A DNA stretch of 64,000 nucleotides from a virus. Lineage: Duplodnaviria; Caudoviricetes. Shown one piece after another: positions 1,747-33,869 of this stretch; positions within the stretch are counted from its first letter, which is position 1; the number at the start of each line of letters is the position of its first letter. The notes beneath the pieces are model-generated. The model searched no databases, was not told where the DNA came from, and was given only the letters and a program-made list of their open reading frames with translations. The DNA lies in the IMG/VR virus record IMGVR_UViG_3300033121_000264, positions 1 through 64,000 of that record. One strand, given 5' to 3'. A program made the translations under genes and the position numbers.

Positions 1747-1756
1747 GGTGTATAAT
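1747..1756 (+). promoter_or_regulatory. GGTGTATAAT motif (putative phage promoter), copy 1
   Basis: Identical 10-mer recurs upstream of other endonuclease genes. Confidence 0.75.
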
Positions 1757-1800
1757 ATAATGTGAAGAGATTTTATCACTGTTACATGACGAGGGTTACA

Positions 1801-2526
1801 ATGGGTGGGTTCTGCAACAAGAATGATATTATTGGCAAAAAACTATTTAAATTAACAGTATTATCTATTTCAAAAACAACAGACAAAGATAAACATACGT
1901 TTTATGAATGCCAATGTGAGTGTGGAAAAATAAGAACTATTAGACGTAGTTCTTTGATAGCAGGTACAACAAAAACGTGTGGTAAATGCTTTATTAGTAA
2001 AGACTTATCCGGTCAAAAATTTGGACAATTACAGGTGATTAAATTTTTAAAAAAAGAAAAAGAAAAAGTTTATTGGGAATGTTTATGTGAATGTGGAAAG
2101 ATTAAAGACACATATACTAGTTTATTAATGACTGGTAGAATGACTCACTGTGGATGTAATAAAAAAGAAATGCCTTATGGTTATAGGCATGGCAATTGGC
2201 ATGGTTTTGCAGAAATAAGTCAAAGATATTGGAAAACACTAGAAAAGGGAGCAATTACAAGAAAGTTAGAGTTTAGTATTAATAAAAAAGATACTTGGAA
2301 TCTATTTCTAAAACAGAATAGAAAATGCGCATTAAGCGGAGTTGAATTAATATTTGCAACAAATAAGTTATCTGACCAAACCGCGTCACTTGACCGAATT
2401 GACTCATCTAAAGGTTATACTGAAGATAATGTTCAATGGATTCATAAAGATTTGCAAAGTATGAAAATGAATCAATCTGAAAAAGATTTTATTAAATGGT
2501 GTAAGTTAATTGCTAATCATCGCTAA
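1801..2526 (+). mobile_element. Free-standing HNH homing endonuclease (CxCxCG repeats plus SLDRID...NVQW); start likely ATG 1801 rather than 1762
   Basis: ECQCECG, ECLCECG, SLDRIDSSKGYTEDNVQWIH; GAGG RBS at 1791; paralogs at 19473, 23873, 33198. Confidence 0.85.
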
Positions 2527-2579
2527 AATATAGTGAAGGATGTGCAAGTTGTGCGTGCGGTTACTCTAAGTGTTCATAA
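2523..2579 (+). pseudogene. Orphan duplicate of the NrdJ C-terminus
   Basis: Translates LKYSEGCASCACGYSKCS*, versus MIFQEGCQTCKNCGFSKCG* at the end of nrdJ. Confidence 0.8.
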
Positions 2580-2591
2580 TGAAAGTCAGCA

Positions 2592-3296
2592 ATGAAACAT
2601 CAACCAAAGAAACCTAGAAAATTAAAAACCAATAAACCAATTAACAAACCAGCCCCTGAATTTGTCGCAGAGAAGGGGGCTCCAGGAACAGAAGGTCAAA
2701 AACAATATTTAAGAACAATATGTGAAAACCAAATAACAATATGTATTGGACCAGCAGGAACCGGTAAGGGTTTTATAGCTATGCACTATGCTATTCAACA
2801 TTTATTAGGAGGGCAATGTAATAAAATTATATTAACTAGACCCGTAGTAAGTGGAGGTATGGAAGAACTTGGTGCTCTTCCCGGAGATACAGACAGTAAG
2901 CTAAGCCCATATATTCAAAGTTTATTAGACTCTCTTAAGAAGTTTATTAGCTATACTCAAATTTCAGAAATAAGAAATAGTAAAGCTTTAGAGTTTATAG
3001 CTCTTAGTCATACTAGGGGAAGAACATACGATAATTGTGTAGTTATATTTGATGAAATGCAAAATGCAAACATAGAACAATTAAAAATGGCTTTGACTAG
3101 AATTGGAAAAAACTGTAAATTGATTATTTTAGGAGATATTAAGCAAAGCGACTTAAAACAAAAGGAAAGAGGAGCTTTAGACTTAGTAATTGGAAAATTA
3201 GATGGAGTTGAAGGTATAGGTATAGTAAAATTAACTAATAAGGATATTATGCGTAATGAAATTATAGGGCGTATTTTAGATAGATTGGAAGAGTAA
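2592..3296 (+). CDS. phoH: PhoH-like ATPase
   Basis: GPAGTGK, LTRP, LGALPG, RGRT, DEMQN, LTRIG, GDIKQSDL, DIMRN. Confidence 0.93.
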   Translation: MKHQPKKPRKLKTNKPINKPAPEFVAEKGAPGTEGQKQYLRTICENQITICIGPAGTGKGFIAMHYAIQHLLGGQCNKIILTRPVVSGGMEELGALPGDTDSKLSPYIQSLLDSLKKFISYTQISEIRNSKALEFIALSHTRGRTYDNCVVIFDEMQNANIEQLKMALTRIGKNCKLIILGDIKQSDLKQKERGALDLVIGKLDGVEGIGIVKLTNKDIMRNEIIGRILDRLEE

Positions 3297-3305
3297 ATTT
3301 TTAAT

Positions 3306-3315
3306 GGTGTATAAT
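3306..3315 (+). promoter_or_regulatory. GGTGTATAAT motif, copy 2
   Basis: 31 nt upstream of ATG 3347; AGGAG RBS in between. Confidence 0.8.
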
Positions 3316-3346: not shown

Positions 3347-4396
3347 ATGCACAAAATTATACTACCAAACGAAAACCTATTATGTTGCAAAACCGGTTTT
3401 ATCAATACTAGAGATATTAAAATAGGAGACGGTGTTTTAAATCATGATGGTTTAGCTGATACTGTCATCAATTGTAATAGTTATGAATCAGACATATATA
3501 AAATCAGTTTTACAGACGATACAAAAATTTTAATCAGTCAAGATTCTAAAATTGGATTAATGTCAATGTATGAAAAAAAATACAAAAAAAACTTTAAAAA
3601 CAGAGATATCAGAACAATAAAAGAAAAATACAAAACCGGGGAAGAGAAGTGTATCTTTAGAATTAAGATGTGCAATCCAATAAATTTTGATAATGTTTCT
3701 CAAAAAATTAGTACATATATTACGGGATGTTTAATAGGAGATGGTAATATTTCTTCTCAAACATGTATTGATATATCTAATAAAGACGATGATGTTTTAG
3801 CTAAAATTAAAAAACACTTACCAGATGATTTAATATTAATATACGCAAATCAATACAATTATCGCTTTAGAGGTAAAATAAAATGTAAAAATATAATGTA
3901 TGATATTTATCGAGAATACGATTTATTAGACAAAAAATCATATAATAAATTTATACCAAAAATACTACAAAAGGCGACACTAGAAGAAAGAATTGAATTG
4001 TTATATGGTCTGATAGATACAGATGGATGTATAGCTAAAAGACAAAATGGCGATGGAAGAGTCATTTATTCGACAATTTCTCAAAATTTAGCAGAAGACG
4101 TAGTATTGTTAGTGCAATCATTAGGTGGAACAGCAACTATAAGTAAAAGAACTTTTACAGAAAAAGATAATCATTATTATAAGGGGCATCTCATTAAACA
4201 TAATTATCCGCTATATACAATAAATATTTCTATTAATATAAACCCCGCATCATGCCAAAGAAAAAAAAACAATTATACAACACAAAACCCAAAAAGACTA
4301 ATCAAAAATATTGAATACGTAAAACGCTCACAATGTACGGAGATAACTTTAATGAATAAACAAGAATGTATTACTAATAATTACGTGTGTATATAA
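3347..4396 (+). mobile_element. Free-standing LAGLIDADG endonuclease with degenerate intein (Hint) flanks
   Basis: YITGCLIGDG and LLYGLIDTDG motifs; DIKIGD block near the N-terminus; C-terminus IKNIEYV...ITNNYVCI lacks terminal HN. Confidence 0.85.
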
Positions 4397-9282: not shown

Positions 9283-11796
9283 ATGGACTTTAAAAATCCA
9301 CAACCAAGCGAAATTGCAGAACGTTCAGTTTTAGGGGGAATTTTACATCATGGACAAGAAGCTTATTTAGATGTAGCAGATATTATTACTCCAGATTCAT
9401 TTACAAATGATATGAATAAGGTAATATATAACTGTATTAGACAGATTTGTGAGAAAAAAGCCGAAGGTGTTGTGTTAGACCCTGGACTTGTATTATCAGC
9501 TTCACAGGAATGTGGATATGGTCAATTCTTTACAGAAAAGAAACATGCTGAGTATTTAAGGGGTTTGTTTAATTTTGGTGGTACGGTAGATATTAATAAC
9601 ATTCGTACACATGGAGCAAAGATTAGAAAGCTCCAAATTGCTAGAGATTTACAAAAGGCGGCTCTACAATCTGTGGTGGACCTTGGTAATATTAATGGAA
9701 CAGAAGAAATAGAGAAGATTTGTTTCCTAGCCGAAGAACACATTATTCAAGAAATGGATAAGTTATTTGGGCAGGGCCACAATGATATTAAGGATATGGG
9801 TGAGGGACTTTCTGATTTCGTTCAGAATCTTATTGAAAATCCACAAGATAGTTTTGGGATTCCTAATCAGTATGTCGAATATTGTAGGGCTATTGGTGGC
9901 GGACATATTCGTAAAGAATTGGACATTATTGCAGCAAGAGCTAAGCAGGGAAAAGCGGAAACATTAGATAGTATTTTATATACTGTTGACGGTCCTAAAT
10001 TGATGAAAGATATAAAAATAGGAGACTTACTATGTCATCCAAGCGGGAAAACTACAAAAGTTATCCAATTGCATCCTCAGGGTAAATCTCAAGTATACAA
10101 AATTTATTTTAATGATGGAACATTTGTAAAATGTAATAAAGAACATTTATTTACAGTATCACACAGAAGAAATAGATTAGAACAAAATTGTACAATTTCT
10201 ATACAAAATTTACTTAATAAAAATTTAAATTACAAAACTCTTGATGGTAAAAGGCGTAATAATTATTATATAAAATTAACTAAGCCAGTTAAAATGAATA
10301 AAAAACCATTACCTATCCATCCATATGTTATGGGGGTTATTTTAGGAGATGCTCATATTGGTAAAATGGTAATGCTTACATGTTTTGATAACCAAATCAT
10401 TGAAAATTGTAATAAACTACTTAAACCGGGTTATAAGTTTAAAAAATCTAAAAAACGAGAAGGATTATATCTATTGGTTGGTAAAACTAATGGTCTAAAT
10501 TACTATAATCGGATTTTAAAAGAAATTGGATTATATGGAACAAAAGCCAAAAATAAGTTTATACCATCAATCTATAAATACAATAGCAAAAAAAATAGGT
10601 CTTTCTTATTGCAAGGTTTAATGGATACTGATGGTTATGCTGGTAGCAAAAATATAATTCCAGAATATGCTACTAAATCTAAAAAATTAGCACTAGACGT
10701 AACTGAAGTTGTTGAATCGCTAGGAGGAATTTGTAAACTAAAAAGAAGAATCACATATTGTAACAATATAGGTTTTTATTCTTATAGATTACACATTAGC
10801 ACAAATAATAATAAACAATTATTTAAATTAGATAGAAAAATTAATGCAGCATCTATTAGAACTAAAACAGAATTAAAAAGATGGATTACTAAAATAGTAA
10901 AAACAAAAAAACAAGAAGAAATGCAATGTATTACTGTAGATGCTAAAGATGGTCTTTATCTTACAAATAATTTTATTGTTACTCATAACAGTTTTTTCGC
11001 AGATAATATCGGATTTTACATTGCTGAGAAGTTTAACATTCCTGTCATTAATATTGACACGGAACTTTCTCAAGAACAACACTGGATTAGACTATTAGGT
11101 ATTATTTCCGGCGTTGATATGAATGAAATTAAGACTGGTCAATTTGCCAAAGACCCAGAAAAATTAGCAAAGGTACGTGACGCAGAAGAACGTATTAAGA
11201 AGGTGCCTTATAAATATGAATGTATTGGGCATCGTTCGTTTGAAGACGCCTTAGCTATTCTACGTAGATGGGTTAATAAACACGTAGGAATAGATGAAAA
11301 TGGCCGAAGAAATGATTGTTTAATTATATATGACTACATTAAGTTATTGAGTGAAGATGGATTAGAAAAGAATATGGCTGAGTATCAGAAACTAGGTTTT
11401 TTGGTAACGGCCCTAAAGAACTTTCTAATTCGTTATGATGTTCCATGTTTAGCATTTGCTCAATTGAATCGTGATGGTATTGATGGTGATTCAACTGCTG
11501 CTATGGCCGGGTCAGACCGTATTCTTATGTACTGTTCATCTCTGGCTTTTTTCAAACCTAAAACACTAGAAGAAATGGCGATTGGAACTAAGTATGGTAA
11601 TCGTAAGATGCATGTTGTTGCTGCTCGTAATGGACCAGGAACAGATGAAGAAACTTATTTACATATGCAGTTCGATAAAAATATAGGAAGAATAACAGAA
11701 GTTTGTACTCAAGCTAAGGTAAAAGAAGAAGAAAACTATAAAAAGGCATTTGGATACGAAGGTGATGATGACGAAGACATCGAATTACCTAACTAA
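9283..11796 (+). CDS. dnaB: Replicative DNA helicase DnaB with intein
   Basis: AERSVLGGIL, AARAKQGK|S (Walker A after splicing), IDTE, IYDYI, AQLNR, ARNGP. Confidence 0.95.
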   Translation: MDFKNPQPSEIAERSVLGGILHHGQEAYLDVADIITPDSFTNDMNKVIYNCIRQICEKKAEGVVLDPGLVLSASQECGYGQFFTEKKHAEYLRGLFNFGGTVDINNIRTHGAKIRKLQIARDLQKAALQSVVDLGNINGTEEIEKICFLAEEHIIQEMDKLFGQGHNDIKDMGEGLSDFVQNLIENPQDSFGIPNQYVEYCRAIGGGHIRKELDIIAARAKQGKAETLDSILYTVDGPKLMKDIKIGDLLCHPSGKTTKVIQLHPQGKSQVYKIYFNDGTFVKCNKEHLFTVSHRRNRLEQNCTISIQNLLNKNLNYKTLDGKRRNNYYIKLTKPVKMNKKPLPIHPYVMGVILGDAHIGKMVMLTCFDNQIIENCNKLLKPGYKFKKSKKREGLYLLVGKTNGLNYYNRILKEIGLYGTKAKNKFIPSIYKYNSKKNRSFLLQGLMDTDGYAGSKNIIPEYATKSKKLALDVTEVVESLGGICKLKRRITYCNNIGFYSYRLHISTNNNKQLFKLDRKINAASIRTKTELKRWITKIVKTKKQEEMQCITVDAKDGLYLTNNFIVTHNSFFADNIGFYIAEKFNIPVINIDTELSQEQHWIRLLGIISGVDMNEIKTGQFAKDPEKLAKVRDAEERIKKVPYKYECIGHRSFEDALAILRRWVNKHVGIDENGRRNDCLIIYDYIKLLSEDGLEKNMAEYQKLGFLVTALKNFLIRYDVPCLAFAQLNRDGIDGDSTAAMAGSDRILMYCSSLAFFKPKTLEEMAIGTKYGNRKMHVVAARNGPGTDEETYLHMQFDKNIGRITEVCTQAKVKEEENYKKAFGYEGDDDEDIELPN
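9955..10989 (+). mobile_element. 345-aa LAGLIDADG intein in the DnaB Walker A; Ala1, class-3-like
   Basis: Begins AETLDS, ends MQCITV...IVTHN followed by Ser; GVILGDA and LQGLMDTDG. Confidence 0.93.
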
Positions 11797-15209: not shown

Positions 15210-15559
15210 TGGGATTATTCAACTGGTTTAAAAAAGACGATAAAGACGACAAAGAGTTTGGAGCTGCACGGTCGTCCAAGTGGCCGACAGTAAGAAAGCA
15301 CTTTTTAGAAAAACATCCATATTGCGAAGTTTGTGGGTCAAAAAATAATTTGAATGTCCACCATATGAAACCTTTTCATCTTGAGCCGGAGCTAGAATTA
15401 GATGAGTCAAATCTAATTACTTTATGTGAAGGTAAAAGTGTTAATTGTCATTTTCTATTTGGTCATTTTTGTAATTGGAAGAATTTTAATCCAGATGTAG
15501 TAAAAGACTCAGCAGAGTGGAGTTTAAAGTTAAATAGAAGTGGAGTAAATAATGAATAA
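15209..15559 (+). CDS. Small HNH endonuclease
   Basis: CEVCG...VHHMKP...NLITLC...CH. Confidence 0.8.
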   Translation: MGLFNWFKKDDKDDKEFGAARSSKWPTVRKHFLEKHPYCEVCGSKNNLNVHHMKPFHLEPELELDESNLITLCEGKSVNCHFLFGHFCNWKNFNPDVVKDSAEWSLKLNRSGVNNE

Positions 15560-19429: not shown

Positions 19430-19439
19430 GGTGTATTAT
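19430..19439 (+). promoter_or_regulatory. GGTGTATTAT motif variant (copy 3) within an RBS-sequestering hairpin (19432-19472)
   Basis: TGTATTATCTTGTA pairs with TACAGGAGAATACA (13 of 14, including one G-U). Confidence 0.75.
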
Positions 19440-19472: not shown

Positions 19473-20093
19473 ATGCGAGACACTCATACAAAATTTATAA
19501 ATCAACGTTTTGGTAAACTATTATGTCTAGAAATTGACAAAAAGGATAAATTTGGTCATACATTTTACAAATGTTTATGTGATTGTGGAAAAGAAAAACT
19601 AGTAGTTGGATACGCGTTATTATCTAGTAATACTACAAGTTGTGGTTGTAGTTCTAGAAAAATTGGAGAAAAAAACAAACAATACAAGGGGTATAAAGAG
19701 GTTCCTTATTGGTTTTGGAGACAAATTCAAAGAGGGGCTAAAATAAGAAATATTAAATTTGATATTAAGATTGAAGATATTTGGAATTTATATTTAAAAC
19801 AAGATAGAAAGTGTTCAATTTCTGGGGTTCCAATTCAATTTTGTAAATCTACTAAAAAAAGACAAACAATGAATTTATCAGTAGATAGAATTGATTCTCT
19901 AAAATCTTATAATATTAATAATATTCAATTAGTACACAAAACTATTAATAGAATCAAACAAAATTTATCTCAAGAAGACTTTTTTATTATATGTAATTTA
20001 ATTGCTAATAAACACCCAAAATTTATTAAAAATATAGAGGAGATTTTGAATTCATATGGATGGGCAAGAAAAAACGTTAAGTCAAAAAATTAA
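19473..20093 (+). mobile_element. Free-standing HNH homing endonuclease; start likely ATG 19473
   Basis: KCLCDCG, SVDRIDS...NIQLVH; AGGAG RBS. Confidence 0.85.
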
Positions 20094-20616
20094 ACAGTGT
20101 CAGATGTGTACTCTTTGTCGTGAATTACCTATGGGCTTAGAACCATTACCAGGAATTGGTAGTGGAGATATTATGATAGTATTAGAATCTCCAAATATTG
20201 ATAATATGATACTTGAAGATTATGATACTTCTCTTGCTCAAAAAACACTATTTAAGGTTCTTAAAGATAGTGGTATTAATTCATACTATATAACACATAT
20301 AATGAAATGTCACTCCGAAAATAAATATAAGAAACACGAAATAAAAGCGTGTTATAGATGGTTTACAGAAGAAGTAAAAGAAAAAAAGCCGAAGGCTATA
20401 ATAACGAGTGGGTTGCTTCCGCTTAAGACTATTCTGAATCAGTCTAAGGTGGACAAATTAAAGGAATGGGTTTATCAGCCTATTTTAGCTGAACCAGTTC
20501 CTGGAACCAAAGTTAAGTTATTACCTATCTATGCGGGTAATTATTACTATCAGAATGGGGCAAAAGTTTATAATACAGCCGTCAAAAAACTAAAGGAGTT
20601 TATTAGTGGCATCTAA
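20056..20616 (+). CDS. Uracil-DNA glycosylase family 4-like protein
   Basis: CQMCTLC, PGIG, IMIVLESP, ITHIMKC, AC. Confidence 0.7.
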   Translation: MDGQEKTLSQKIKQCQMCTLCRELPMGLEPLPGIGSGDIMIVLESPNIDNMILEDYDTSLAQKTLFKVLKDSGINSYYITHIMKCHSENKYKKHEIKACYRWFTEEVKEKKPKAIITSGLLPLKTILNQSKVDKLKEWVYQPILAEPVPGTKVKLLPIYAGNYYYQNGAKVYNTAVKKLKEFISGI

Positions 20617-21457
20617 AGGTTTATTTTATGATGATATTTGGTTAATCCCTAGACACCAATCAGAACTTGAGAGTCGTGGTCAAGCAAATACTTCTGTTGA
20701 TTTTTGTGGATTCAATTTAAAGTTTCCTGTTATTGCGGCCCCAATGCCTGACGTTTGTGATAGTAATATGGCAAATCAACTATCAGCTTTAGGCGGATTA
20801 GGTATTATACATAGATTTCAGACGATTGAAGAACAGTGTGTGATTTTAGGATATTCATATACATACGGAGCGGCTATTGGAGTCACTGGCGATTATTTAG
20901 AAAGATTTGAAGCTTTATATGAAAGTGGGTGTAGGGTTTTTTGTATTGATGTTGCTAATGGTCATTCTACTATTGTTCGTAAGACTCTAGAAGAGATTAA
21001 AAAACGACACTACGATATAGAGACTATCGTTGGAAATGTTGCATCAGCAGAAGGTTACGAATATCTAGCACAAATGAATGTAACTGCTGTTAGGGTAGGA
21101 ATTGCGGGAGGTTGTTTTACTGCCGAAACAAAAGTAACGACCAAAAATGGTCCTAAAAATATTAATAAAATAGAACTTGGAGACGAGGTTTTAACTCATA
21201 CTGGAAATTATAAAAAAGTAACAGCTAAACTAGAAAGGTTAGAAGATGAAAATTTAATAGATATAAACGGTATTCATTGTACTAAAAATCACGAATTTTA
21301 TGTAATACATAAGTCATTGAAAGATATTGTGAACGAAGATAATATTCAAATGTACGCAAAATGGGTATCAGCCGAGGAGCTATCTGATGATTATTTATTG
21401 ATAAAAATTACAGAAAATACCTCTACCAATACCGCCAATGATTCTAATGGTGTATAA
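20606..21457 (+). CDS. guaB: IMPDH/GMP reductase N-half fused to split intein N-part
   Basis: YDDIWLIP, AAPM, GGLGIIHRF, IDVANGH, GNVAS, VRVGIAGG|CFTAET; lacks CBS domains; guaB versus guaC not resolved. Confidence 0.88.
   Translation: MASKGLFYDDIWLIPRHQSELESRGQANTSVDFCGFNLKFPVIAAPMPDVCDSNMANQLSALGGLGIIHRFQTIEEQCVILGYSYTYGAAIGVTGDYLERFEALYESGCRVFCIDVANGHSTIVRKTLEEIKKRHYDIETIVGNVASAEGYEYLAQMNVTAVRVGIAGGCFTAETKVTTKNGPKNINKIELGDEVLTHTGNYKKVTAKLERLEDENLIDINGIHCTKNHEFYVIHKSLKDIVNEDNIQMYAKWVSAEELSDDYLLIKITENTSTNTANDSNGV
21113..21454 (+). mobile_element. Split intein N-fragment (IMPDH-1-like)
   Basis: CFTAETKV...INGIHCTKNHEFYVI...WVSAEEL. Confidence 0.92.
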
Positions 21458-21458
21458 T
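21449..21458 (+). promoter_or_regulatory. GGTGTATAAT motif, copy 4; contains the stop codon of the IMPDH N-half
   Basis: ORF ends NGV* = AATGGTGTATAA. Confidence 0.8.
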
Positions 21459-21486
21459 ACTATGTCAACACACCAAAGGAGAAGAA

Positions 21487-22440
21487 ATGATAAACTTAAT
21501 AAAGGTTAATGGGTTAGAGATAATAGATGATAATAGAATTGGTCAAGTTCGTATTTTTACACTAAAAGATAAAACAACATTACTTAGAAAAGAAATTCAA
21601 GAAGTTGAGATATGGTGTCAGTCCTGTCAAAAATTTTATCATAGAAAGTTATCATATTATCATCTAACTAAAAAATATCAATGTAATTCTTGTCATAGTA
21701 GATTAAATAATTCATTTCAAGGGAAAAAACATTCAGAAGAATTTAAGAAAAAAATGTCTGAATCTAGGAAAGGTAAACGTCTAAATCCACATTCTAAAAG
21801 TAATTATCAATGGTGGTTAGAAAAATACGGAGAAGAAGAAGCTAATAAACGACATAAAATATATTTAGATAAACAAAAATTAGCTAATGGAGGTAGTAAT
21901 AATGCATTTTATGGTAAAAAACACACAGAAGAAACAATACAAAGAATAATATCTAAAAGTAAAATTACAAATTCTTTAAAAACAAAAGAAGAAAAAAAAA
22001 TCATTTCAGATAAGTTAAAATTAGCTCAACAAAAAATTAAAAATAAGAATCCTCAAAAATATATTGAAAATAAGAAAAAGGCTGGAAAAGCTTCTCATAA
22101 TGCTCAAGGTAAATATAAAATTAATAAAATAGAAAAATTAATACAAGATTATTTATTAAAATTTAAGATTGATTTTAAATATGCTATAATTTTAGATAAA
22201 TATCAATTTGATTTTGGTAATTTACCACACAAAATTTTAATTGAAGTTCAAGGTGATTATTGGCACGGTAATCCTAACATTTATAAAACATTCAATCATA
22301 TACAACAAAAAAATATATTACGAGATATAGAAAAAGAAAAATGGGTAACTTCAAACGGTTATAAATTAGTTACAATTTGGGAAACAGACATTTTAAATAA
22401 TAATTTTCAAACATTAGATATTATCGAGGATTTAATATGA
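21487..22440 (+). mobile_element. Vsr-like (EDxHD/DUF559) homing endonuclease with NUMOD3 repeats
   Basis: GKKHSEEFKKKMSE, GKKHTEET; FDF...IEVQGDYWHG...RD...IWETD. Confidence 0.85.
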
Positions 22441-23033
22441 AATTTGAATTAGTGGAAATTAAAAAAATAGACAGTTTTAAAGTTAATAACCAAAAGGTAT
22501 ATGATATTACAGTAGAAGATGACCATTCGTATTGTGTAGATGGAAATATAGTAGTGCATAATTCTGTATGTTCAACCAAAACTGAAACTGGCGTACTTAC
22601 TCCAATGTGGTCTACATTACAAGAAGTGAGAGATTGTAAAAATAAGAATCCAACATACAAATCATTAATAATCGCTGATGGTTCAATTAAACAACCAAAT
22701 CATCTATGTAAGGCTCTGTGCCTAGCAGATATTGCTATGGCTGGCGGTATTTTTGCGGGAACAGAAGAAGCCCCTGGAAATGTAATTAAAACACCAGATA
22801 ATCAAATGGTTAAACTATATCGTGGTGCGGCTAGTTTTTCAACTCAAAAATACGAAGCTAAGAAACATCCAAAATACGTAGAAGGTATTGAAACATTCAT
22901 TCCGTATACCGGAGCTTTAAGAAAAGTCGTAGATAGATATACTGGAGGTTTACAATCTAGTATGAGTTATATGAATGCAAAAACTTTAAGTGAATATAGA
23001 CAAAATTTTGATTATACAATCGTGAAAGGATAG
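22437..23033 (+). CDS. guaB: Split intein C-part (22437-22562, 42 aa) fused to the IMPDH/GMPR C-half
   Basis: MKFELVEI...VYDITVEDDHSY...VVHN|SVCSTK; IADG, EAPG, YRGAAS, VEG, SSMSY. Confidence 0.9.
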   Translation: MKFELVEIKKIDSFKVNNQKVYDITVEDDHSYCVDGNIVVHNSVCSTKTETGVLTPMWSTLQEVRDCKNKNPTYKSLIIADGSIKQPNHLCKALCLADIAMAGGIFAGTEEAPGNVIKTPDNQMVKLYRGAASFSTQKYEAKKHPKYVEGIETFIPYTGALRKVVDRYTGGLQSSMSYMNAKTLSEYRQNFDYTIVKG

Positions 23034-23816: not shown

Positions 23817-23830
23817 TGTTTGACTTAAAT

Positions 23831-23840
23831 GGTGTATAAT
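23831..23840 (+). promoter_or_regulatory. GGTGTATAAT motif, copy 5
   Basis: Within inverted repeat TTGACTTA (23820)/TAAGTCAA (23855) abutting the RBS. Confidence 0.8.
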
Positions 23841-23872
23841 CTATTATCACAGTATAAGTCAAGGAGCACAAT

Positions 23873-24586
23873 ATGAAAAAAGTAGAAATTCATCAAGAAT
23901 ATTTAGAAGATATGATATTAAATAAAAATCATACAGTACAACAAATTAGTCAACTGCTCAATATAGATGTTAGAACAGTAATTAAATATTGTAAAAAATA
24001 TAATGTTGATTTTAATAAAAGAAAATGCGTTAAACCTGGAGATAAAAGTGGATTATTAACAGTAATTTCTTCATATGGAAAAGATAAACATGGTCATACT
24101 AAATGGAAATGTAAATGTGAATGTGGAAATATTAAAATTATAGTTGGACATGGTATTTCTAGTAATAATACAAAAAGCTGTGGATGTTTAAGATATAATC
24201 CAAATAAAAGGAAATGTAAATACCAAGTTCCTGGTACTGCAATGAAAAATGAAATCATTGTTTCTTATAAAAATGGGGCCAAAAATAGAAATTTAGATTT
24301 CAAACTAACAGATAAAGAATTAGAACTTTTATTTAGTGGAGATTGTTATTATTGCGGTGCCAAACCATCTAGAATTAGAAATAGAAAAAATACTAATGGG
24401 GCATTTATTTATAATGGAATTGATAGAAAAAATCCAGAAATAGGTTATTTAAGTAATAATTGTGTGTCATGTTGCACTCAATGTAATATCAGCAAACATT
24501 GTATGAATTTAAATGAATTTTTGAGCTGGATATCTAAAGTTCATAAACATATAACAAATTTTAAAGGAATCCAAGATGATAAATGA
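23873..24586 (+). mobile_element. Free-standing HNH homing endonuclease with N-terminal HTH
   Basis: KCKCECG, CYYCG, NGIDRKN...NCVSCCTQCN. Confidence 0.85.
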
Positions 24587-25217
24587 TAGACCATTTTTAG
24601 TATTTGATTTTGAGACAACTGGGATTAATCCAGCAAAATGCGGTATCACTCAAATTGCAGCATGTGCAATACATCCTCGTCGATTAGAAATACTTGGTAC
24701 ATTTAATAGAGACAACATAAAATGGCACGATGATGATGAGATTAATGATGAAGCATTTAAAATTACACGAAAAGATAAAGACTTCATTCTTAAAAATGGA
24801 GTTAATCCAAAACAAGCATGGGAAGAATTTACTAATTTTGTGTATGAATACAACCCAAAACGTTCATCTTGGAGTGCCCCAATCCCAGCTGGTTATAACA
24901 TTATTGGATACGACTTAAAAATATTAGATAGATATTGTGATAAATATGGTCCATCCGATGTAAAAAATGGACGACAATCCTTAGTAAGTACATTTATGAG
25001 ATATGATTTAATGGACCAGATTTTTTGGTGGACTGAAAGTAACGCTTCTCTACCAAATATTAAACTAGATACTATTCGTGATTGGATGGGGCTAAGTAAA
25101 GAAGGTGCCCACGATGCTTTAGTAGACGTTGAACAAACAGCCCAAATTGTAATTAAGATGATTCGTTTATATAGAGAGTTGAGTACCAGAGTAAAATTTG
25201 CAGGAGCATTTATCTAA
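24576..25217 (+). CDS. dnaQ: DEDDh 3'-5' exonuclease (DnaQ-like)
   Basis: FDFETTG, GYNIIGYD, HDALVDV. Confidence 0.85.
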   Translation: MINDRPFLVFDFETTGINPAKCGITQIAACAIHPRRLEILGTFNRDNIKWHDDDEINDEAFKITRKDKDFILKNGVNPKQAWEEFTNFVYEYNPKRSSWSAPIPAGYNIIGYDLKILDRYCDKYGPSDVKNGRQSLVSTFMRYDLMDQIFWWTESNASLPNIKLDTIRDWMGLSKEGAHDALVDVEQTAQIVIKMIRLYRELSTRVKFAGAFI

Positions 25218-25773: not shown

Positions 25774-25973
25774 AACAATCAGGCTGGTATTGTAATAATT
25801 GCGAACAAGAACTCTTGTACTATAATATAGGATTTGATGATGGATATCAATGTCCAAAATGTAAAAGAATACTAGAATCTTATCAATTAAAAAAAGAAGC
25901 TATTAAAGCAACTGATATTTATAAACGTGGTGTTTTTGCTTATATTACACAACATTGGAATAAAACGATATGA
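25770..25973 (+). CDS. Small Zn-ribbon protein
   Basis: CNNC...CPKC. Confidence 0.5.
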   Translation: MKQSGWYCNNCEQELLYYNIGFDDGYQCPKCKRILESYQLKKEAIKATDIYKRGVFAYITQHWNKTI

Positions 25974-26854
25974 ATGAATTTAAATTTGATTGCGGTTGCT
26001 CATTTCCTATTCTTGGTCCAGCTACACAAAAATTTGATATTCCACGCCTAAAAATTGACTTCTATAATATTAAGTATACTTGTGAAGCCACATGGGATAT
26101 TATTCGTACTGGTAACACAGTTGGAGTGTTCCAATTAGAAACTAAACTAGGACAAGATTGGTCTAAGCGTGTATCTCCAGATAATCTAGAGCATCTTGGT
26201 GCTATCGGTGCTATTCTTCGTCCGGGTTGTTTAAAAGCTATTACAGATGGTAAGAGTATGACGGCACATTATGCCGACTGTAAAAACCATAGAGAAGAAG
26301 TTAAATTATATCACCCAATTGTTGATGAATGTTTAAAAGAAACATATAATCTATTGGTCTATCAAGAACAAGCTATGGCTCTAGCTAAAGAAGTTGCGGC
26401 GTTTAGTTTAGAAGAAGCTGACAATCTAAGAAAAGCAATGGGTAAAAAACTTGCCTCTGAAATGGCTAAAGTTAAGACAATGTTTAAGGAAAAGGGCTTA
26501 CAAGCCGCAATTTTGACAGAAGCCCAATTAGATGAAGTTTTTGGTTGGATTCAAGAGTCACAAAGGTACAGTTTTAATAAGAGTATATTAGCTGATACAA
26601 TAGTTGAAACTAAAAACTGTCTAAAAACTATTGAAAATTTAAAAATAGGAGAATATATAAATAGTCCAGATGGATTTATTGAAGTATTAGATAAATATGA
26701 CCACGGCGAACAAGAAGTATATGAAATTACTATGGAATCAGGCAAATCTATCACTTGTACTATGCAACATAAATTTTTATGTGAAGATTCAATAATAAGA
26801 CCTTTATTTGAAATTATTGAAAATAATCATAAAATAATATGTGATGATGATTAA
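25970..26854 (+). CDS. dnaE: DnaE piece 2 (fingers) fused to split intein N-part (26582-26851, Ser1)
   Basis: TVGVFQLE, LRPG, ETYNLLVYQEQ, ADNLRKAMGKK, YSFNK|SILADT...TCTMQHKF. Confidence 0.9.
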   Translation: MNEFKFDCGCSFPILGPATQKFDIPRLKIDFYNIKYTCEATWDIIRTGNTVGVFQLETKLGQDWSKRVSPDNLEHLGAIGAILRPGCLKAITDGKSMTAHYADCKNHREEVKLYHPIVDECLKETYNLLVYQEQAMALAKEVAAFSLEEADNLRKAMGKKLASEMAKVKTMFKEKGLQAAILTEAQLDEVFGWIQESQRYSFNKSILADTIVETKNCLKTIENLKIGEYINSPDGFIEVLDKYDHGEQEVYEITMESGKSITCTMQHKFLCEDSIIRPLFEIIENNHKIICDDD

Positions 26855-26855
26855 T

Positions 26856-26865
26856 GGTGTATAAT
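26856..26865 (+). promoter_or_regulatory. GGTGTATAAT motif, copy 6, abutting the stop of DnaE piece 2
   Basis: TAA-T-GGTGTATAAT; 31 nt before ATG 26897. Confidence 0.8.
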
Positions 26866-26896
26866 CCTATGACCAAACTTAATAAGGAGCATAGTA

Positions 26897-27799
26897 ATGA
26901 TTATAGACCAATCTATATGGGCTAAATGTTTAATTTGTCAAAAAACCAAAAAAGATATATGTAAATTATATGGTGGTGGTGGAATTTATTATTCACAAGC
27001 ATTTAATAATCATATTAATAAAGACCACAATTTAACTTTAGAAGAATATTTTGTTCAATATTGTAATTTAGAACAACCAATATGTGCTTGTAATATATGT
27101 AATCAAAAATGTAAATTATCAAATCATGTTGGTAAAATCAAATGGAAAGAATATGTTTGTGGTAGATATCCTGGGTTATTAAAATGGTCAGAAGATGCTA
27201 AAATAAATAGAAAAGGTTCAAAAAATCCCATGTTTGGTAAAACAGCATGGAACAAAAATAAAACCAAAAATGATTGTGAACAGTTAAAAAATATATCAGA
27301 AAAACGAAAAGGAATAAAAGTATCTGAAGCTTCCAAATTTAAAATGTCTGAATCTGCTAAAAAAAGAAAAATTCATGGACATACTGGCTTTAAACATTCT
27401 GAAGAATCTAAACAAAAAAATAGAGAAGCTACATTACAAAGAATTAAAAACGGTGATTTTAAACAAACAAAAACAAAACCACATATAGAATTAGAAAAAA
27501 TTTTAACAGAATTAAGATTTAAATTTGAATCAGAAAAAACTATACATTATTGGTCTTTTGATATCTATTTAATAGATTTTGATATTTATATTGAAGTTGA
27601 TGGCGATTATTTTCATTCTAATCCAAAACTATATCCAAATGGACCTAAAACTAAAACTCAAAAAATTAATTATATTAGAGATATTAGTAAAAACAAATAT
27701 TGTAAAACCAATAATATTAAATTAATCAGATTTTGGGAATGTGACATATTAAATGATATTGAAAGGGTAAAAATAGAATTATGCAAGCTGAAAAAATAA
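26897..27799 (+). mobile_element. Vsr-like (EDxHD/DUF559) homing endonuclease with NUMOD3 repeats
   Basis: NPMFGKTAWNK, GFKHSEESKQK, FDIY...IEVDGDYFH...RD...FWECD. Confidence 0.85.
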
Positions 27800-28932
27800 T
27801 TGGTATTAAAAAAATTGGAACTTTACCAACAGTTGATATTGAAGTAAAAAGTGATAGACATATTTTTTATGGAAATGGAATAGCTACATCAAATTCACAC
27901 AGTATTGAATATGGTCTAGTAAGCTATTGGACGGCTTTTGCTAAGGCTCATGGTTCACATGCATTTTATACAGCTTGGCTCAAGGAAAGCATTGGACAAC
28001 AAGATGGTGAGAAGGATGTTATCAAACTTACCGCCAATGCAATGACTCAAAAGGTCAAAATTAATACACCAACAATTCTAACCAATAAAGACAATTTCTA
28101 CACAGATGGTAAAGAGATTTGGTTTGGCCTAATCAATATTAAGGGGGTTGGAGCATCTGTTGTTAGAAAACTTCATGAGGCTAGTAAAAAAGCCGAGGAA
28201 GAAATAGGTGTCTCGTTAAAAGATATGTCTTGGATTCAGTTCCTAGTATATGTATCAGGTTCAATAAATAGTAAGGCTATGTTGGCTATGATAATGGCTG
28301 GGGCTTTAGACCATTTAAAAATGAGCCGCACCCAAATGAAATATGAGTATGAAAAATTCCTAGTTATTAATGACAACGAATTGGGCCTAATTAAATCAAA
28401 GGCTACTAATTACAATATGGCACTAGTAGAGTTCCTTCGGCCTTTTTGTAAGACTCGTAAGAATGGGGGCGTCGTAGCTAATGAACGCCGATTAGGTACA
28501 TTTGAAGATATTATCAAAACCCTAGATAAACCTCCATTTGATTTAGCGGATTCTCCTAATAAAATTTTGGAAAATGAACGTAGATTGCTTGGTGTTGCTT
28601 TAACTTATAACGTTGGCGATAGTATTGCTAATGATGCTGTAAACTGTTCATGTTATGAATTTGCCGAAGGTAAACCCTTGGATAGCTTCGTGTTAGGTGT
28701 AGAAATATTGGACGTTCGACCCTATAATATAAAGCGGGGAAAACAGACTGGCAAACAAATGTATTATTTGGACGTTTCTGATGGTACGACAAATATGCCT
28801 AATTGCACTGTATTTCCAGATACTTTTGATGAATATGGAAGTCTGATTACAAAGGGTAATAGAGTTCTTTTATTTGGAAAACGTGATTCAAAGTTCAACA
28901 GTTTCAACGTACAAAAGGTAATTCAAGCGTGA
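27781..28932 (+). CDS. dnaE: Split intein C-part (27781-27894, 38 aa) fused to DnaE piece 3 (HhH and OB fold)
   Basis: TVDIEV...HIFYGNGIATSN|SHSIEY; IWFGLINIKGVG; MAGALD; ERRLLG; VFPDTF. Confidence 0.9.
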   Translation: MQAEKIIGIKKIGTLPTVDIEVKSDRHIFYGNGIATSNSHSIEYGLVSYWTAFAKAHGSHAFYTAWLKESIGQQDGEKDVIKLTANAMTQKVKINTPTILTNKDNFYTDGKEIWFGLINIKGVGASVVRKLHEASKKAEEEIGVSLKDMSWIQFLVYVSGSINSKAMLAMIMAGALDHLKMSRTQMKYEYEKFLVINDNELGLIKSKATNYNMALVEFLRPFCKTRKNGGVVANERRLGTFEDIIKTLDKPPFDLADSPNKILENERRLLGVALTYNVGDSIANDAVNCSCYEFAEGKPLDSFVLGVEILDVRPYNIKRGKQTGKQMYYLDVSDGTTNMPNCTVFPDTFDEYGSLITKGNRVLLFGKRDSKFNSFNVQKVIQA

Positions 28933-29840: not shown

Positions 29841-30302
29841 ATGGATAACAAAGATAAAGAGATAGAACTGATTCTAAAAAACATGGGATTGGTTCTATCT
29901 CAATCTTTTTCTTTTAAGAGTTCGCCTTATATAGGACAAGATGATTATAAACAAGCAGGAATTGTTGGGCTTTTAAAAGCAATTCGTAAGTTAGACCCAA
30001 CTAAAGCAAAACTAGTTACATTCTCATATCGAACAATTAAGAATGAACTATTGCTAGAACATCGTAAAAATAAAAGAAATTTACAACTTTTGGGCGAAGA
30101 AGATGTTAGGGTTCAATATAATAAGGGTTCTGATTTTAAAGAGTTTTTGCCGGAATTAAGTAAAACTGATTCTGAAATCATTCAATATAAATTAGAAGGT
30201 TATACTCTTTCTGAAATAGCAGACAAGATGTATATGACTCAAAATGAACTAAAAAATAATATCAAACGCATTTATAAGAAAATTAAGGAAGCAAATGACT
30301 AG
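29841..30302 (+). CDS. Sigma70-family RNA polymerase sigma factor
   Basis: DDYKQAGIVGLLKAIRKLDP...TFSYRTIKN; GYTLSEIADKM. Confidence 0.82.
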   Translation: MDNKDKEIELILKNMGLVLSQSFSFKSSPYIGQDDYKQAGIVGLLKAIRKLDPTKAKLVTFSYRTIKNELLLEHRKNKRNLQLLGEEDVRVQYNKGSDFKEFLPELSKTDSEIIQYKLEGYTLSEIADKMYMTQNELKNNIKRIYKKIKEAND

Positions 30303-32028: not shown

Positions 32029-33139
32029 AGTATTATATATTGGAAATTGTACAGAAAATACTGGTTATGGAGAAGCTGTCCGACAAATGATTGCGGCTAT
32101 GGATAGCGTTGGTATAGACGTTGTAGTTAGACCGTTATTTCTTGGTGGACAAAATATTCCTGTATCTCAAAGACTTGGAGAGTTAATTAATAAAGATGAC
32201 AGAAATCCAGACGTTGTTATTCAACATACCCTTCCACACTTTATGGAATATAATGGTAAATGCGGAAAGAATATTGGATTATTTGCATCTGAAACTAATA
32301 GATTTGACAATGGAATTTGGCCTGAAAAACTTAATTTAATGGATGAAGTTTGGGTTATCTCTCAACAACAAATAGAAGCATGTAAAACAAGCGGTGTTCA
32401 AGTCCCAGTGAATTTGGTTCAGCACCCATGTAATGTAGCTAAATATCAACAAAAATATGAACCATTAAAGTATAAACAATTAGAAAATAAATTTGTCTTT
32501 TACTGGTTAGGTGAATTTAATCAACGTAAGAATTTAGCAGCAGCAGTTAAGGCATTTCATATTGAATTTGACCCCGATGAACCTGTAGAGTTAATTATCA
32601 AAACATCTATTCCAGGTAAGAATCCTGTTGAAACTGCTAGTATTATTAATGAGTATTTGAAAGAGATTAAAGAAAATCTTAAACTATATAAGAATATTGG
32701 AGTATATAAAAAGGAAACTCTAATTACAGCATATATGAAAGAGTCTGATTTAATGAGACTACATAAATCTGGACATTGTTTTATATGTACTTCTCATGGT
32801 GAAGCTTTCTGTTTGCCTGCTGCTGATGCTTTAGGCGTTGGAAATCCTGTTATTGCTCATAATCTAGATTATGTCAAGCATGAATATAATGGACTTATTC
32901 CATACTCAGATAAAGCCGAAGTGTATGGGGCGGTAGATACTTTTCCTGACCTATTAGTTGGTAATGAACTATGGGATACTGTAAGGGTTCCAAGTCTACA
33001 AAAACAAATGAGAAGAATGTTTGAGGCAAAAACTAACGGAGAATATAATAAGTTCTCTGATAATGCTATGGATTCGGTATATGAGATGTCATATGAAAAA
33101 ATTGGTAATCAAATCAAGGGGCTTTTACATATTGACTAG
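32021..33139 (+). CDS. GT4-like glycosyltransferase
   Basis: TGYG, RKNL, SHGEAFCLP. Confidence 0.85.
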   Translation: MTKVLYIGNCTENTGYGEAVRQMIAAMDSVGIDVVVRPLFLGGQNIPVSQRLGELINKDDRNPDVVIQHTLPHFMEYNGKCGKNIGLFASETNRFDNGIWPEKLNLMDEVWVISQQQIEACKTSGVQVPVNLVQHPCNVAKYQQKYEPLKYKQLENKFVFYWLGEFNQRKNLAAAVKAFHIEFDPDEPVELIIKTSIPGKNPVETASIINEYLKEIKENLKLYKNIGVYKKETLITAYMKESDLMRLHKSGHCFICTSHGEAFCLPAADALGVGNPVIAHNLDYVKHEYNGLIPYSDKAEVYGAVDTFPDLLVGNELWDTVRVPSLQKQMRRMFEAKTNGEYNKFSDNAMDSVYEMSYEKIGNQIKGLLHID

Positions 33140-33153
33140 ACCAACTTTTGTAT

Positions 33154-33163
33154 GGTGTATAAT
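33154..33163 (+). promoter_or_regulatory. GGTGTATAAT motif, copy 7, within a hairpin covering RBS and ATG
   Basis: TGTATAATCTC (33156-33166) pairs with GAGATTATATG (33190-33200). Confidence 0.8.
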
Positions 33164-33197
33164 CTCATAGGTCGAAACTACCAATAAAGGAGATTAT

Positions 33198-33869
33198 ATG
33201 AGAAAACCATTCACAAAAGAAGAAAAAGATGAAATTATACGACTTTATCCTATAATGGATACAAAGGAACTTGCAAAAAAATTAAATAGAAACTGGAAAG
33301 TAATAAAACATTTTGCTTATTCTCAAGGTGTTAAAAAACCAGTAATTGATTTAACAAATCAAAAAATTGGTAAATTACAAATTATTGGATTATCTAATAA
33401 AAAAGCCGGGAGAGAAAGATTATGGAAATGTCAATGTGAGTGTGGTAAAAATATTTTAATGAGAACATATGCATTAAACAAAAGAGGGACGCTATCTTGT
33501 GGTTGTTACAGGATTGAAAAAATATCAAATTCTTATGGTAAAATCAGTGGAGTGTGGTATGGTAAAATCAAAGGAAATGCACAAAAAAGAAAATTAGAAT
33601 TTAATGTATCTATCGAATTTTTAAATGATTTATTAGAAAAACAGAATTTTAAATGTGCAATTAGTGGACTACCAATTAAAATAGAAATGGGTAGAACAAA
33701 TAAAATAACAACAGCATCCTTAGATAGAGTTGATAATACTAAACCATATACTGAAGATAATGTTCAATTTTTACATAAACATGTAAATTATATGAAGTGG
33801 ACCCATAAACAAGATTATTTTATTAAACTTTGTCATAAAATCTCAAAATATAATAGAAAGAAAAATTAA
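33198..33869 (+). mobile_element. Free-standing HNH homing endonuclease
   Basis: KCQCECG, CAISG, ASLDRVDN...DNVQFLH. Confidence 0.85.

What the first reader, a model, noticed from the sequence alone, without database searches (positions are those of the whole stretch)
1747..33200. One shared expression cassette (GGTGTATAAT, ~30 nt, RBS) in front of seven homing endonucleases from three unrelated families
Seen: GGTGTAT(A/T)AT at 1747, 3306, 19430, 21449, 23831, 26856 and 33154. It lies 44, 31, 33, 28, 32, 31 and 34 nt before the ATG of four HNH, one LAGLIDADG and two Vsr-like endonuclease genes. It is absent in front of the core replication genes, and I see no consistent -35. An eighth copy lies on the - strand upstream of the tape measure gene (61720-61729). 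Inference: this is the phage late promoter, and unrelated selfish genes have convergently adopted it to time homing to the late, multi-genome phase. This parallels late-promoter control of T4 endonucleases such as I-TevI but uses a different motif.
Basis: partly seen in the sequence, partly recalled or inferred. Interest (0 to 1): 0.8.

Follow-up and report, generated by a model that had tools for sequence, protein, structure and literature searches.

The report
Late-type promoter carried by homing endonucleases
An uncultured 105-kb phage uses a short signal, GGTGTATAAT, as a promoter without a -35 box in front of its structural genes, and nearly every selfish DNA-cutting gene in its replication genes carries its own copy, which repeats a strategy known from phage T4 with a different promoter.

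Summary
GGTGTATWAT occurs 8 times in the window (0.47 expected) and 15 times in the 104,685-bp phage. All copies point the way the local genes are transcribed, and none has a -35 box.

- **Structural module:** eight copies lie here, before the portal, tail-tube-like and tape-measure genes among others. They are kept at the same places in relatives that have no endonucleases there.
- **Replication module:** seven copies lie here, each 28-44 nt before a homing endonuclease gene (4 HNH, 1 LAGLIDADG, 2 NUMOD3/Vsr-like).
- **Early region:** it uses a different class, 26 near-consensus TTGACA-N16/17-TATAAT promoters.
- **Syntenic relatives:** the motif is present wherever an endonuclease is inserted (7 of 7 further cases) and absent from the empty sites.
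- **Mobility:** one motif+HNH unit sits in a 1,220-nt tract that is 100% identical between two phages whose flanks are 63-88% identical.

So the promoter is part of the mobile cassette. Late timing and the sigma factor that reads it remain inferred. T4-style hairpins that hide the ribosome binding site are supported at only 1 of 8 sites. One endonuclease-like gene (44455-45240) lacks the motif.

This is a new variant of a known strategy (T4 I-TevI, Aeh1 mobE, fractured genes). The scan has already noted endonuclease cassettes with their own promoters on other phage DNA.

The parts
1747..1756 (+). Promoter-like motif GGTGTATAAT, 12 nt after the stop of the ribonucleotide reductase gene
1801..2526 (+). 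HNH homing endonuclease gene (phrog_374/3322)
3306..3315 (+). Motif GGTGTATAAT, 9 nt after the PhoH stop
3347..4396 (+). Free-standing LAGLIDADG endonuclease gene, related to the DnaB intein at 9283-11796
19430..19439 (+). Motif variant GGTGTATTAT. This is the only site where upstream sequence significantly hides the ribosome binding site in read-through RNA (z = -2.9)
19473..20093 (+). HNH endonuclease gene between DnaE-N and UDG. It is absent from relative L053, where the two genes abut
21449..21458 (+). Motif overlapping the stop codon of the N-terminal IMPDH/GMP-reductase + Hint fragment
20606..23033 (+). Fractured IMPDH/GMP-reductase gene: N half + Hint (20606-21457), NUMOD3/Vsr-like endonuclease (21487-22440), intein C + C half (22437-23033). 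The gene is intact in relatives L051 and L053
23831..23840 (+). Motif GGTGTATAAT before the HNH gene
23873..24586 (+). HNH endonuclease gene between the YAcAr and RNase_T genes. It is absent in L053 and L054
23814..25033 (+). 1,220-nt tract 100% identical to relative L051 (motif, leader, HNH gene and 447 nt of the RNase_T gene). The flanks are 63-88% identical, so this is a recent homing or co-conversion tract
26856..26865 (+). Motif, 1 nt after the stop of the DnaE finger + N-intein fragment
25970..28932 (+). Fractured DnaE gene: finger + intein N (25970-26854), NUMOD3/Vsr-like endonuclease (26897-27799), C part with HHH_6/OB (27781-28932). The gene is intact (548-549 aa) in L051 and L054
33154..33163 (+). 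Motif before the HNH gene. It is conserved 10/10 in the diverged orthologous cassette of L051
33198..33869 (+). HNH endonuclease gene between two glycosyltransferase genes
61720..61729 (-). Motif 105 nt before the tape measure ATG. It is conserved in L056 and present as AGTGTATAAT in L057
54155..61615 (-). Tape measure gene (2486 aa), the first gene of the transcript predicted to start at 61729
29841..30302 (+). Sigma factor gene (regions 2 and 4, 153 aa), a candidate reader of the motif. It is conserved in L051, L053 and L054 and was not found in G003
44455..45240 (+). Exception: endonuclease-like gene (weak NUMOD3 + PD-(D/E)xK-like, phrog_559/9084/503) with no motif. It overlaps the upstream ORF

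Best explanation
GGTGTATAAT (extended consensus aT-GGTGTATAAT-C..T) is a lineage-specific promoter with no -35 box. It turns on this phage's structural (late) genes. Each free-standing homing endonuclease inserted in the early/middle-transcribed replication module brings its own copy, as a compact cassette: motif, a leader of about 30 nt with a strong Shine-Dalgarno sequence, then the endonuclease ORF. The ORF often overlaps the start of the next gene.

Shown here:
- the motif's enrichment, orientation and position;
- its separation from the early TTGACA/TATAAT class;
- its conservation at late-gene sites in relatives that lack endonucleases;
- its strict presence or absence together with endonucleases at replication-module sites;
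- its inclusion in a recently transferred tract.

Inferred:
- that it starts transcription about 6-8 nt after the TATAAT;
- that this happens late;
- that it is read by a phage sigma-like protein. The candidates are the 220-aa region-2 protein at genome 80105-80767 (-) and the 153-aa sigma at 29841-30302;
- that the benefit is endonuclease expression when many genome copies are present.
For: - **Enrichment:** 8 copies against 0.47 expected in the window; 15 in the genome, and 12 exact copies against 0.25 expected. All 15 point with transcription, and 14 lie 28-110 nt before a start codon.
- **Two promoter classes:** 26 near-consensus TTGACA-N16/17-TATAAT promoters lie in 82.4-104.5 kb, and only 1 of the 26 has GGTG before its -10 (a 1-mismatch copy, GGTGTAAAAT). 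The motif sites have no -35.
- **Late genes behind the motif:** portal position, an in-frame start inside the protease/scaffold-like ORF, the tail-tube-like gene and the tape measure gene.
- **Conservation without endonucleases:** these late sites are kept in relatives L046/L056 and L049/L057, which have no endonucleases there. The motif is identical at 90 of 90 positions in 9 orthologous comparisons, while the flanks run from 33 to 100%.
- **Replication module of relatives:** L051 has 2 endonucleases and 2 motifs, L053 has 1 and 1, and L054 has 4 and 4. Empty sites have none.
- **HNH at 81043-81633:** it and its motif form a roughly 670-nt insertion that is absent in L046.
- **Recent transfer:** the tract 23814-25033 is 100% identical to L051 and includes the motif.
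- **Distant relative G003:** it has GGTGTATA before a tail-fibre-like gene and before all three of its full-length HNH genes. It shares the 220-aa sigma-like gene.
Against: - There are no transcription data. Timing and start sites are inferred from position alone.
- The motif contains a perfect host-type TATAAT, so host sigma could read it at any time.
- Nothing separates the upstream gene from the cassette (the motif starts at most 14 nt past the upstream stop codon, and at 21449 it overlaps that stop codon). Only 1 of 8 sites shows significant hiding of the ribosome binding site. Endonucleases may therefore also be made from read-through transcripts, which weakens 'late only'.
- One endonuclease-like gene (44455-45240) and two endonucleases in the late module lack the motif.
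- The sigma assignment rests on co-occurrence in a few incomplete contigs.
Confidence: 0.72

Rival explanations
1. The motif is a -35-independent promoter read by the host's primary sigma factor, either constitutively or after a phage protein disables -35 recognition (as in Thermus phage P23-45; from memory). No phage sigma would be involved.
For: - 12 of 15 sites have the perfect host-type TATAAT, the same hexamer as in the early promoters.
- In relatives, the site after the tail-tube-like gene also has a TTGACA 18 nt upstream.
Against: - The TG lies directly against the hexamer (GGTG-TATAAT), not in the TGnTATAAT register of extended -10 promoters (seen in the sequence; the register is from established knowledge).
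- GGTG is invariant at the motif sites but occurs in only 1 of 26 early promoters.
- The phage encodes two sigma-like proteins.
Confidence: 0.2
2. T4-style dual control: the promoter lies in the 5' arm of a hairpin that hides the ribosome binding site on read-through transcripts, so only promoter-initiated RNA is translated.
For: - At 19430 the upstream sequence lowers the accessibility of the Shine-Dalgarno/AUG region from 0.85 to 0.18 (z = -2.9 against shuffled upstream sequence).
- At 23831 an 8-bp stem (TTGACTTA/TAAGTCAA) brackets the motif and abuts the Shine-Dalgarno sequence.
- The mechanism is established for I-TevI and Aeh1 mobE (PMC2988022) and was seen in fractured genes (PMC2677866).
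Against: - Seven of the 8 endonuclease sites do not differ from shuffled controls (z from -0.97 to +0.49).
- The putative complementary bases are not conserved in the orthologous cassette of L051.
Confidence: 0.15
3. The 10-mer is not a promoter. It is instead a nuclease target, a recombination site or an RNA processing site shared by the cassettes.
For: - It sits at cassette boundaries.
- In L056 two copies flank the HNH gene after the tail-tube-like gene, where the empty allele L057 has a single variant copy (GGTGTATAAC). This could reflect insertion at or through the motif.
Against: - Three unrelated nuclease families would not share one target.
- The motif is conserved at late-gene sites that have no endonuclease.
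- It has promoter geometry: a TATAAT 34-50 nt before the start codon at most sites, and always pointing with the genes.
Confidence: 0.04

Closest known systems
Middle/late promoters of T-even homing endonuclease genes (I-TevI, I-TevII, I-TevIII, segB; Aeh1 mobE), reviewed in Edgell, Gibb and Belfort 2010 (PMC2988022)
   Same: - The endonuclease genes lie inside early/middle operons of nucleotide-metabolism and replication genes.
- They carry their own phage-specific promoter without a -35 box, just upstream of their ribosome binding site.
- The same promoter class drives the structural genes.
   Different: - The motif is GGTGTATAAT, not TATAAATA.
- No gp55/gp33 homologues were identified; the phage has other sigma-like genes.
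- The hairpin that hides the ribosome binding site is supported at 1 of 8 sites only.
- In T4, seven free-standing endonucleases are promoter-less. Here 7 of 8 in the replication module, and 7 of 7 in the relatives, carry the promoter.
Fractured genes: split intein halves with a free-standing endonuclease between them (Dassa et al. 2009, PMC2677866)
   Same: - IMPDH and DnaE are each broken by a split intein with a NUMOD3/Vsr-like endonuclease gene between the halves.
- The 3' end of the endonuclease ORF overlaps the downstream half.
- Control elements come in with the endonuclease.
   Different: - Their loci carried the T4-type TATAAATA within a hairpin; these carry GGTGTATAAT without a consistent hairpin.
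- Here the intact alleles (no intein, no endonuclease, no motif) are seen in syntenic relatives.
Extended -10 (TGnTATAAT) promoters without a -35 box, of bacteria and phages
   Same: A perfect -10 hexamer with a conserved upstream extension that contains TG, and no -35.
   Different: - The extension is GGTG placed directly against the hexamer, one base closer than TGn.
- It is invariant over four bases.
- It is confined to one temporal or functional gene class.

Membership tests
Sigma-70-type -35/-10 promoter | -10 hexamer close to TATAAT | tested here: met
   TATAAT at 12 and TATTAT at 3 of the 15 sites
Sigma-70-type -35/-10 promoter | -35 hexamer close to TTGACA, 16-18 nt upstream | tested here: not met
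   The best match averages 2.33 of 6, against 2.63 at background TATWAT sites. The logo carries no information there
Extended -10 promoter | TG at -15/-14, one base before the hexamer (TGnTATAAT) | tested here: not met
   All sites read GGTG-TATAAT, with the TG directly against the hexamer
T4-type late promoter (gp55/gp33/clamp-dependent) | TATAAATA element without a -35, before late genes | tested here: not met
   The sites have no -35 and lie before late genes, but the sequence is GGTGTATAAT
T4-type late promoter (gp55/gp33/clamp-dependent) | A gp55-like minimal sigma encoded by the phage | tested here: inconclusive
   - A 220-aa protein family matches Sigma70_r2 in 16 of 17 members.
- A profile of the family hits sigma factors in the PDB at E = 0.0017.
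- The top Foldseek hits are sigma factors, but with E >= 0.087.
- No direct link to gp55 was found
T-even style endonuclease regulation (I-TevI, mobE) | Own phage-specific promoter directly before an endonuclease gene embedded in an early/middle operon | tested here: met
   7 sites in the window and 7 in relatives
T-even style endonuclease regulation (I-TevI, mobE) | Hairpin that hides the ribosome binding site on read-through transcripts and is broken by the late transcript start | tested here: not met
   Only site 19430 is significant (z = -2.9); the other 7 do not differ from shuffled controls
T-even style endonuclease regulation (I-TevI, mobE) | Expression limited to late infection | not testable with these tools
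   The phage is uncultured and no transcript data are available
Fractured genes (Dassa 2009) | Host gene split at an intein, with the two intein halves on separate ORFs and a free-standing endonuclease gene between them | tested here: met
   - IMPDH: Hint_2 on the N half and Intein_splicing on the C half.
- DnaE: Intein_splicing on the finger fragment.
- An endonuclease lies between the halves in both
Fractured genes (Dassa 2009) | Endonuclease of the Vsr-like (I-Bth0305I) family | tested here: inconclusive
   - DUF559 scores 21.1 bits against a cut-off of 20.6 for 21487-22440.
- The second gene is linked by paralogy (E = 1e-13).
- No sequence hit to a solved I-Bth0305I structure was found.
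- The N-terminal region matches the I-TevI DNA-binding domain

The most novel reading that the evidence does not exclude
The phage lineage may run a sigma cascade in which a previously undescribed sigma-like protein of about 215 aa, with a region 2 and a conserved cysteine cluster, reads a GGTG-extended -10 without a -35. In this reading the shared promoter is more than a passenger: it acts as a portable landing pad or homology patch that lets endonuclease cassettes of any family insert at, and duplicate, resident late promoters. The HNH gene flanked by two motif copies in L056, where the empty allele L057 has a single variant copy (GGTGTATAAC), would be an example.
Probability: 0.2. Interest if true: 0.7.

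Novelty: new variant of a known kind. Interest (0 to 1): 0.5.

Why it matters
- **A general rule:** the result shows, outside the T4 family and with a different promoter and probably a different sigma, that selfish nuclease genes succeed by plugging into the host phage's own late-type transcription signal. The signal travels inside the mobile unit.
- **A testable promoter class:** it defines a promoter class and two candidate sigma factors for a very large group of uncultured aquatic phages. The tail-tube-like protein alone has more than 4,000 homologues.
- **Natural comparison pairs:** it supplies matched filled and empty sites, including intact and fractured IMPDH and DnaE genes, for studying how gene-splitting insertions are tolerated.
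- **An annotation aid:** the motif can mark late operons and endonuclease cassettes in these phages.

Tried and rejected
- **Ribosome-binding-site hiding:** folding long against short transcripts at 8 endonuclease and 6 structural sites, with shuffled upstream controls, gave one significant site (19430). General T4-style translational control is rejected.
- **Recent duplication as the cause of the shared motif:** rejected. The HNH paralogues are 23-39% identical, the Vsr-like pair is 35% identical over 89 aa, and the leaders differ.
- **Group I introns or other known RNAs near the endonucleases:** Rfam finds only three tRNA matches, outside the window.
- **Nucleotide search of cultured phages:** no match. 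The best TerL protein hit is 25% identical.
- **More distant IMG/VR relatives found through DnaE (L012-L028, G001, G002, G004, G005):** no exact motif and no enrichment. Only G003 shares the GGTGTATA core.
- **The literature:** no paper in the library uses GGTGTATAAT as a phage promoter.
- **Whole-record searches of the Logan and JGI relatives:** not possible, because the records are not held.
- **A -35 or ECF-type upstream box:** none found.
- **A second conserved motif for the replication genes:** none found by k-mer enrichment.
Full report
**What the sequence is.** The window is the first 64 kb of a 104,685-bp IMG/VR phage record with 35% G+C, which CheckV rates 68% complete. The genome has three blocks.
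- An early block at 82.4-104.7 kb on the + strand holds many small ORFs.
- A replication and nucleotide-metabolism block at 1-46.6 kb on the + strand holds ribonucleotide reductase, PhoH, a DnaB with an intein, a DnaE in pieces, UDG, IMPDH/GMP reductase, SSB, a sigma factor, glycosyltransferases and epimerases.
- A structural block at 46.6-82.4 kb on the - strand holds TerL, the portal position, the major head protein, a tail-tube-like protein and a 2486-aa tape measure protein.

No cultured phage is close. There is no nucleotide match, and the best TerL hit is 25% identical.

**The observation.** GGTGTATWAT occurs 8 times in the window at exactly the stated places, against 0.47 expected; 0 of 100 shuffles reach 8. 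The stated spacings to the ATG (44, 31, 33, 28, 32, 31, 34 nt) are correct.

The seven + strand copies precede these genes:
- four HNH genes of one family;
- one LAGLIDADG gene;
- two NUMOD3 + Vsr-like genes. The DUF559 hit for the first is borderline, and the second is tied to it by paralogy.

The whole genome has 15 copies, 7 on + and 8 on -, with 12 exact GGTGTATAAT against 0.25 expected. One-mismatch variants are not enriched, apart from three well-placed TATTAT copies. All 15 copies point in the direction of local transcription.

The logo extends the motif to aT-GGTGTATAAT-C..T(R)(G). It shows no information between -45 and -8. The best TTGACA match at 16-18 nt averages 2.33 of 6, no better than the 2.63 found for other TATWAT sites.

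**Two promoter classes.** The early block holds 26 promoters that match TTGACA-N16/17-TATAAT at 11-12 of 12 positions, all on the + strand. The replication block has five such sites on its coding (+) strand, and the structural block essentially none. Only 1 of the 26 early promoters has GGTG before its -10. Conversely, the exact GGTGTATWAT motif is absent from the early block; that one early promoter is a 1-mismatch copy, GGTGTAAAAT.

In the structural block the motif lies at these places:
- before an HNH gene at the head of the block (81677);
- before the 715-aa gene that follows TerL, the portal position (75429);
- before a 106-aa gene (73372);
- inside the 429-aa protease/scaffold-like ORF, 48-60 nt before two in-frame ATGs (72172);
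- before a 170-aa gene (68759);
- before the tail-tube-like gene (66079);
- before a 67-aa gene (64290);
- before the tape measure gene (61729).

This is the layout of a late promoter class.

**Conservation in relatives.** Homologues of a sigma-like gene, of UDG and of the tail-tube-like protein led to closer relatives: a 60-kb Logan contig (83-91% protein identity), a 168-kb JGI contig (63-83%) and a 36-kb Logan contig (63%).

The late sites are kept at orthologous positions in both of the closer relatives, including where G000 has an endonuclease and they do not.
- After the major head gene, L056 reads terminator, then GGTGTATAAT, then the next gene. G000 has a LAGLIDADG gene inserted between that terminator and that promoter.
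- In nine orthologous comparisons the ten motif positions are identical 90 of 90 times, while the 30-nt flanks range from 33 to 100%.
- Natural variants (AGTGTATAAT, AGTGTATTAT, GGTGTATAAC) show some tolerance at the ends of the motif.

**The motif travels with the endonucleases.** In the replication block the relatives differ in which endonucleases they carry, and the motif follows the endonuclease in every case.
- L051 has two HNH genes and two motifs. Its IMPDH (322 aa) and its DnaE finger-HHH gene (549 aa) are intact and have no motif.
- L053 has one Vsr-like gene in DnaE and one motif. Its DnaE-N|UDG and YAcAr|RNase_T junctions are empty and have no motif.
- L054 has four endonucleases: two LAGLIDADG-type (one on the opposite strand), one HNH and one NUMOD3 type. 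It has four motifs, and the opposite-strand copy is the variant GGTGTATATC.

Three further lines agree.
- At the head of the late block, G000 81712 to about 81045 is an insertion relative to L046. It consists of 35 nt, the motif, a leader and the HNH ORF.
- G000 23814-25033 is 100% identical to L051 over 1,220 nt, covering the motif, the leader, the HNH gene and 447 nt of the downstream RNase_T gene. The sequence on either side is 63-88% identical, with dense mismatches starting 18 nt before the motif. This is the signature of recent homing with co-conversion, and the promoter lies inside the tract.
- A much more distant relative, G003 (122 kb), has GGTGTATA enriched before ORFs (7 of 9 copies). 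These include a tail-fibre-like gene and all three of its full-length HNH genes.

**Census and exceptions.** G000 has eleven endonuclease-like genes.
- Eight carry the motif.
- Two lie inside the late block. HNH 64282-64848 has a decayed copy (TATAATC without GGTG), while its L056 orthologue has an exact one. LAGLIDADG 68751-69878 sits behind the head-gene terminator.
- One in the + block (44455-45240; weak NUMOD3 plus a PD-(D/E)xK-like domain) has no motif and overlaps the upstream ORF.

Two small HNH proteins that are conserved in synteny (15209-15559, and a 98-aa one next to TerL) also lack the motif. They look like core genes, not mobile ones.

**How it probably works.** The geometry fits a promoter. 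At most sites the TATAAT lies 34-50 nt before the start codon and a strong AGGAG-type Shine-Dalgarno sequence lies between them. In the tightly packed + block the motif starts at most 14 nt past the preceding stop codon, and at 21449 it overlaps that stop codon.

Because no -35 is present, a reader that needs only an extended -10 is expected. The phage has two sigma-like genes.
- The 153-aa protein at 29841-30302 has regions 2 and 4. It is conserved in the closer relatives but was not found in G003.
- A 220-aa protein at genome 80105-80767 (-) belongs to a family in which 16 of 17 members match Sigma70_r2. The family has an invariant cysteine cluster, and its profile hits sigma factors in the PDB at E = 0.0017. 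The AlphaFold model (pLDDT 79) gives mostly sigma factors as top Foldseek hits, though weakly (E >= 0.087).

The 220-aa gene has an orthologue in G003, which has the motif. It has none in the sequenced parts of G001 and G002, which lack the motif. This rests on a few incomplete contigs. Host sigma reading the perfect TATAAT remains a live rival.

**What is not supported.** In T4, early read-through transcripts hide the endonuclease's ribosome binding site in a hairpin whose 5' arm is missing from the late transcript (PMC2988022). Dassa et al. saw the same in fractured genes (PMC2677866).

Here only site 19430 shows hiding beyond shuffled controls (z = -2.9). Site 23831 has a suggestive 8-bp stem, and the other sites do not differ from the controls or from structural-gene sites. 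With no terminator room before the cassettes, the endonucleases may also be translated from read-through RNA. 'Late only' is therefore not established.

**Comparison and novelty.** The logic matches that of the T-even intron endonucleases, of Aeh1 mobE and of the fractured genes of Dassa et al. It differs in four ways:
- a different promoter sequence;
- probably a different sigma;
- near-universal possession by free-standing endonucleases, where T4 has seven promoter-less ones;
- no general hairpin.

Earlier notes of this scan describe endonuclease cassettes with their own promoters in other phages, so the theme is recurrent. I rate this a new variant of a known kind, of moderate interest. Its value lies in the clean filled-versus-empty comparisons and in defining a promoter class for a very large uncultured phage group (more than 4,000 homologues of the tail-tube-like protein).

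Noticed in passing
window 20606-23033 and 25970-28932; L051:754-1722 and L051:4736-6385: Two fractured genes (IMPDH/GMP reductase and DnaE) are each split by a split intein with a NUMOD3/Vsr-like endonuclease between the halves. The closest relative carries both genes intact, with no intein at all.
   Followed up: partly
window 3347-4396 and 9283-11796: The free-standing LAGLIDADG gene is related (phmmer E = 2e-18) to the LAGLIDADG part of the intein inside the DnaB helicase gene of the same phage. It also matches intein-bearing terminase and primase families in PHROGs.
   Followed up: partly
genome 80105-80767 (- strand; L010:105-767): A 220-aa sigma-region-2-like protein has an invariant cysteine cluster (PCxxCP...C...C). 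It heads the late strand and is conserved in relatives down to G003 (34% identity).
   Followed up: partly
genome 72163-72172 (- strand; L009:12163-12172): A motif copy lies inside the 429-aa ORF between the portal position and the head genes, 48-60 nt before two in-frame ATGs. It is conserved in L056 and L057. It looks like an internal promoter for a nested scaffold-type product.
   Followed up: partly
L056:11135-11770 versus L057:11105-11196 and genome 64243-64934: The HNH gene after the tail-tube-like gene is flanked by two motif copies in L056. The empty allele L057 has a single variant copy (GGTGTATAAC) lying in the loop of a terminator-like hairpin. In G000 the upstream copy has lost GGTG through a small deletion.
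   Followed up: partly
window 44455-45240: An endonuclease-like gene (weak NUMOD3 plus a PD-(D/E)xK-like C-terminal domain) has no promoter motif and overlaps the upstream ORF by 34 nt. It may be a promoter-less or a domesticated endonuclease.
   Followed up: partly
genome 82.4-104.5 kb (L010, L011): The early region holds 26 near-consensus TTGACA-N16/17-TATAAT promoters on one strand. It also holds about a dozen repeats containing TAAGTCCTT with G+C-rich cores, and 3-4 tRNA genes.
   Followed up: no
genome 69879-69961 (- strand) and L056:6583-6706: A strong terminator follows the major head gene. In G000 a LAGLIDADG endonuclease gene sits between that terminator and the next late promoter, and it is absent from both closer relatives.
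   Followed up: partly
window 34800-46612: The end of the + strand block encodes several nucleotide-sugar epimerases and glycosyltransferases, which may modify DNA or the cell surface. None has the motif.
   Followed up: no
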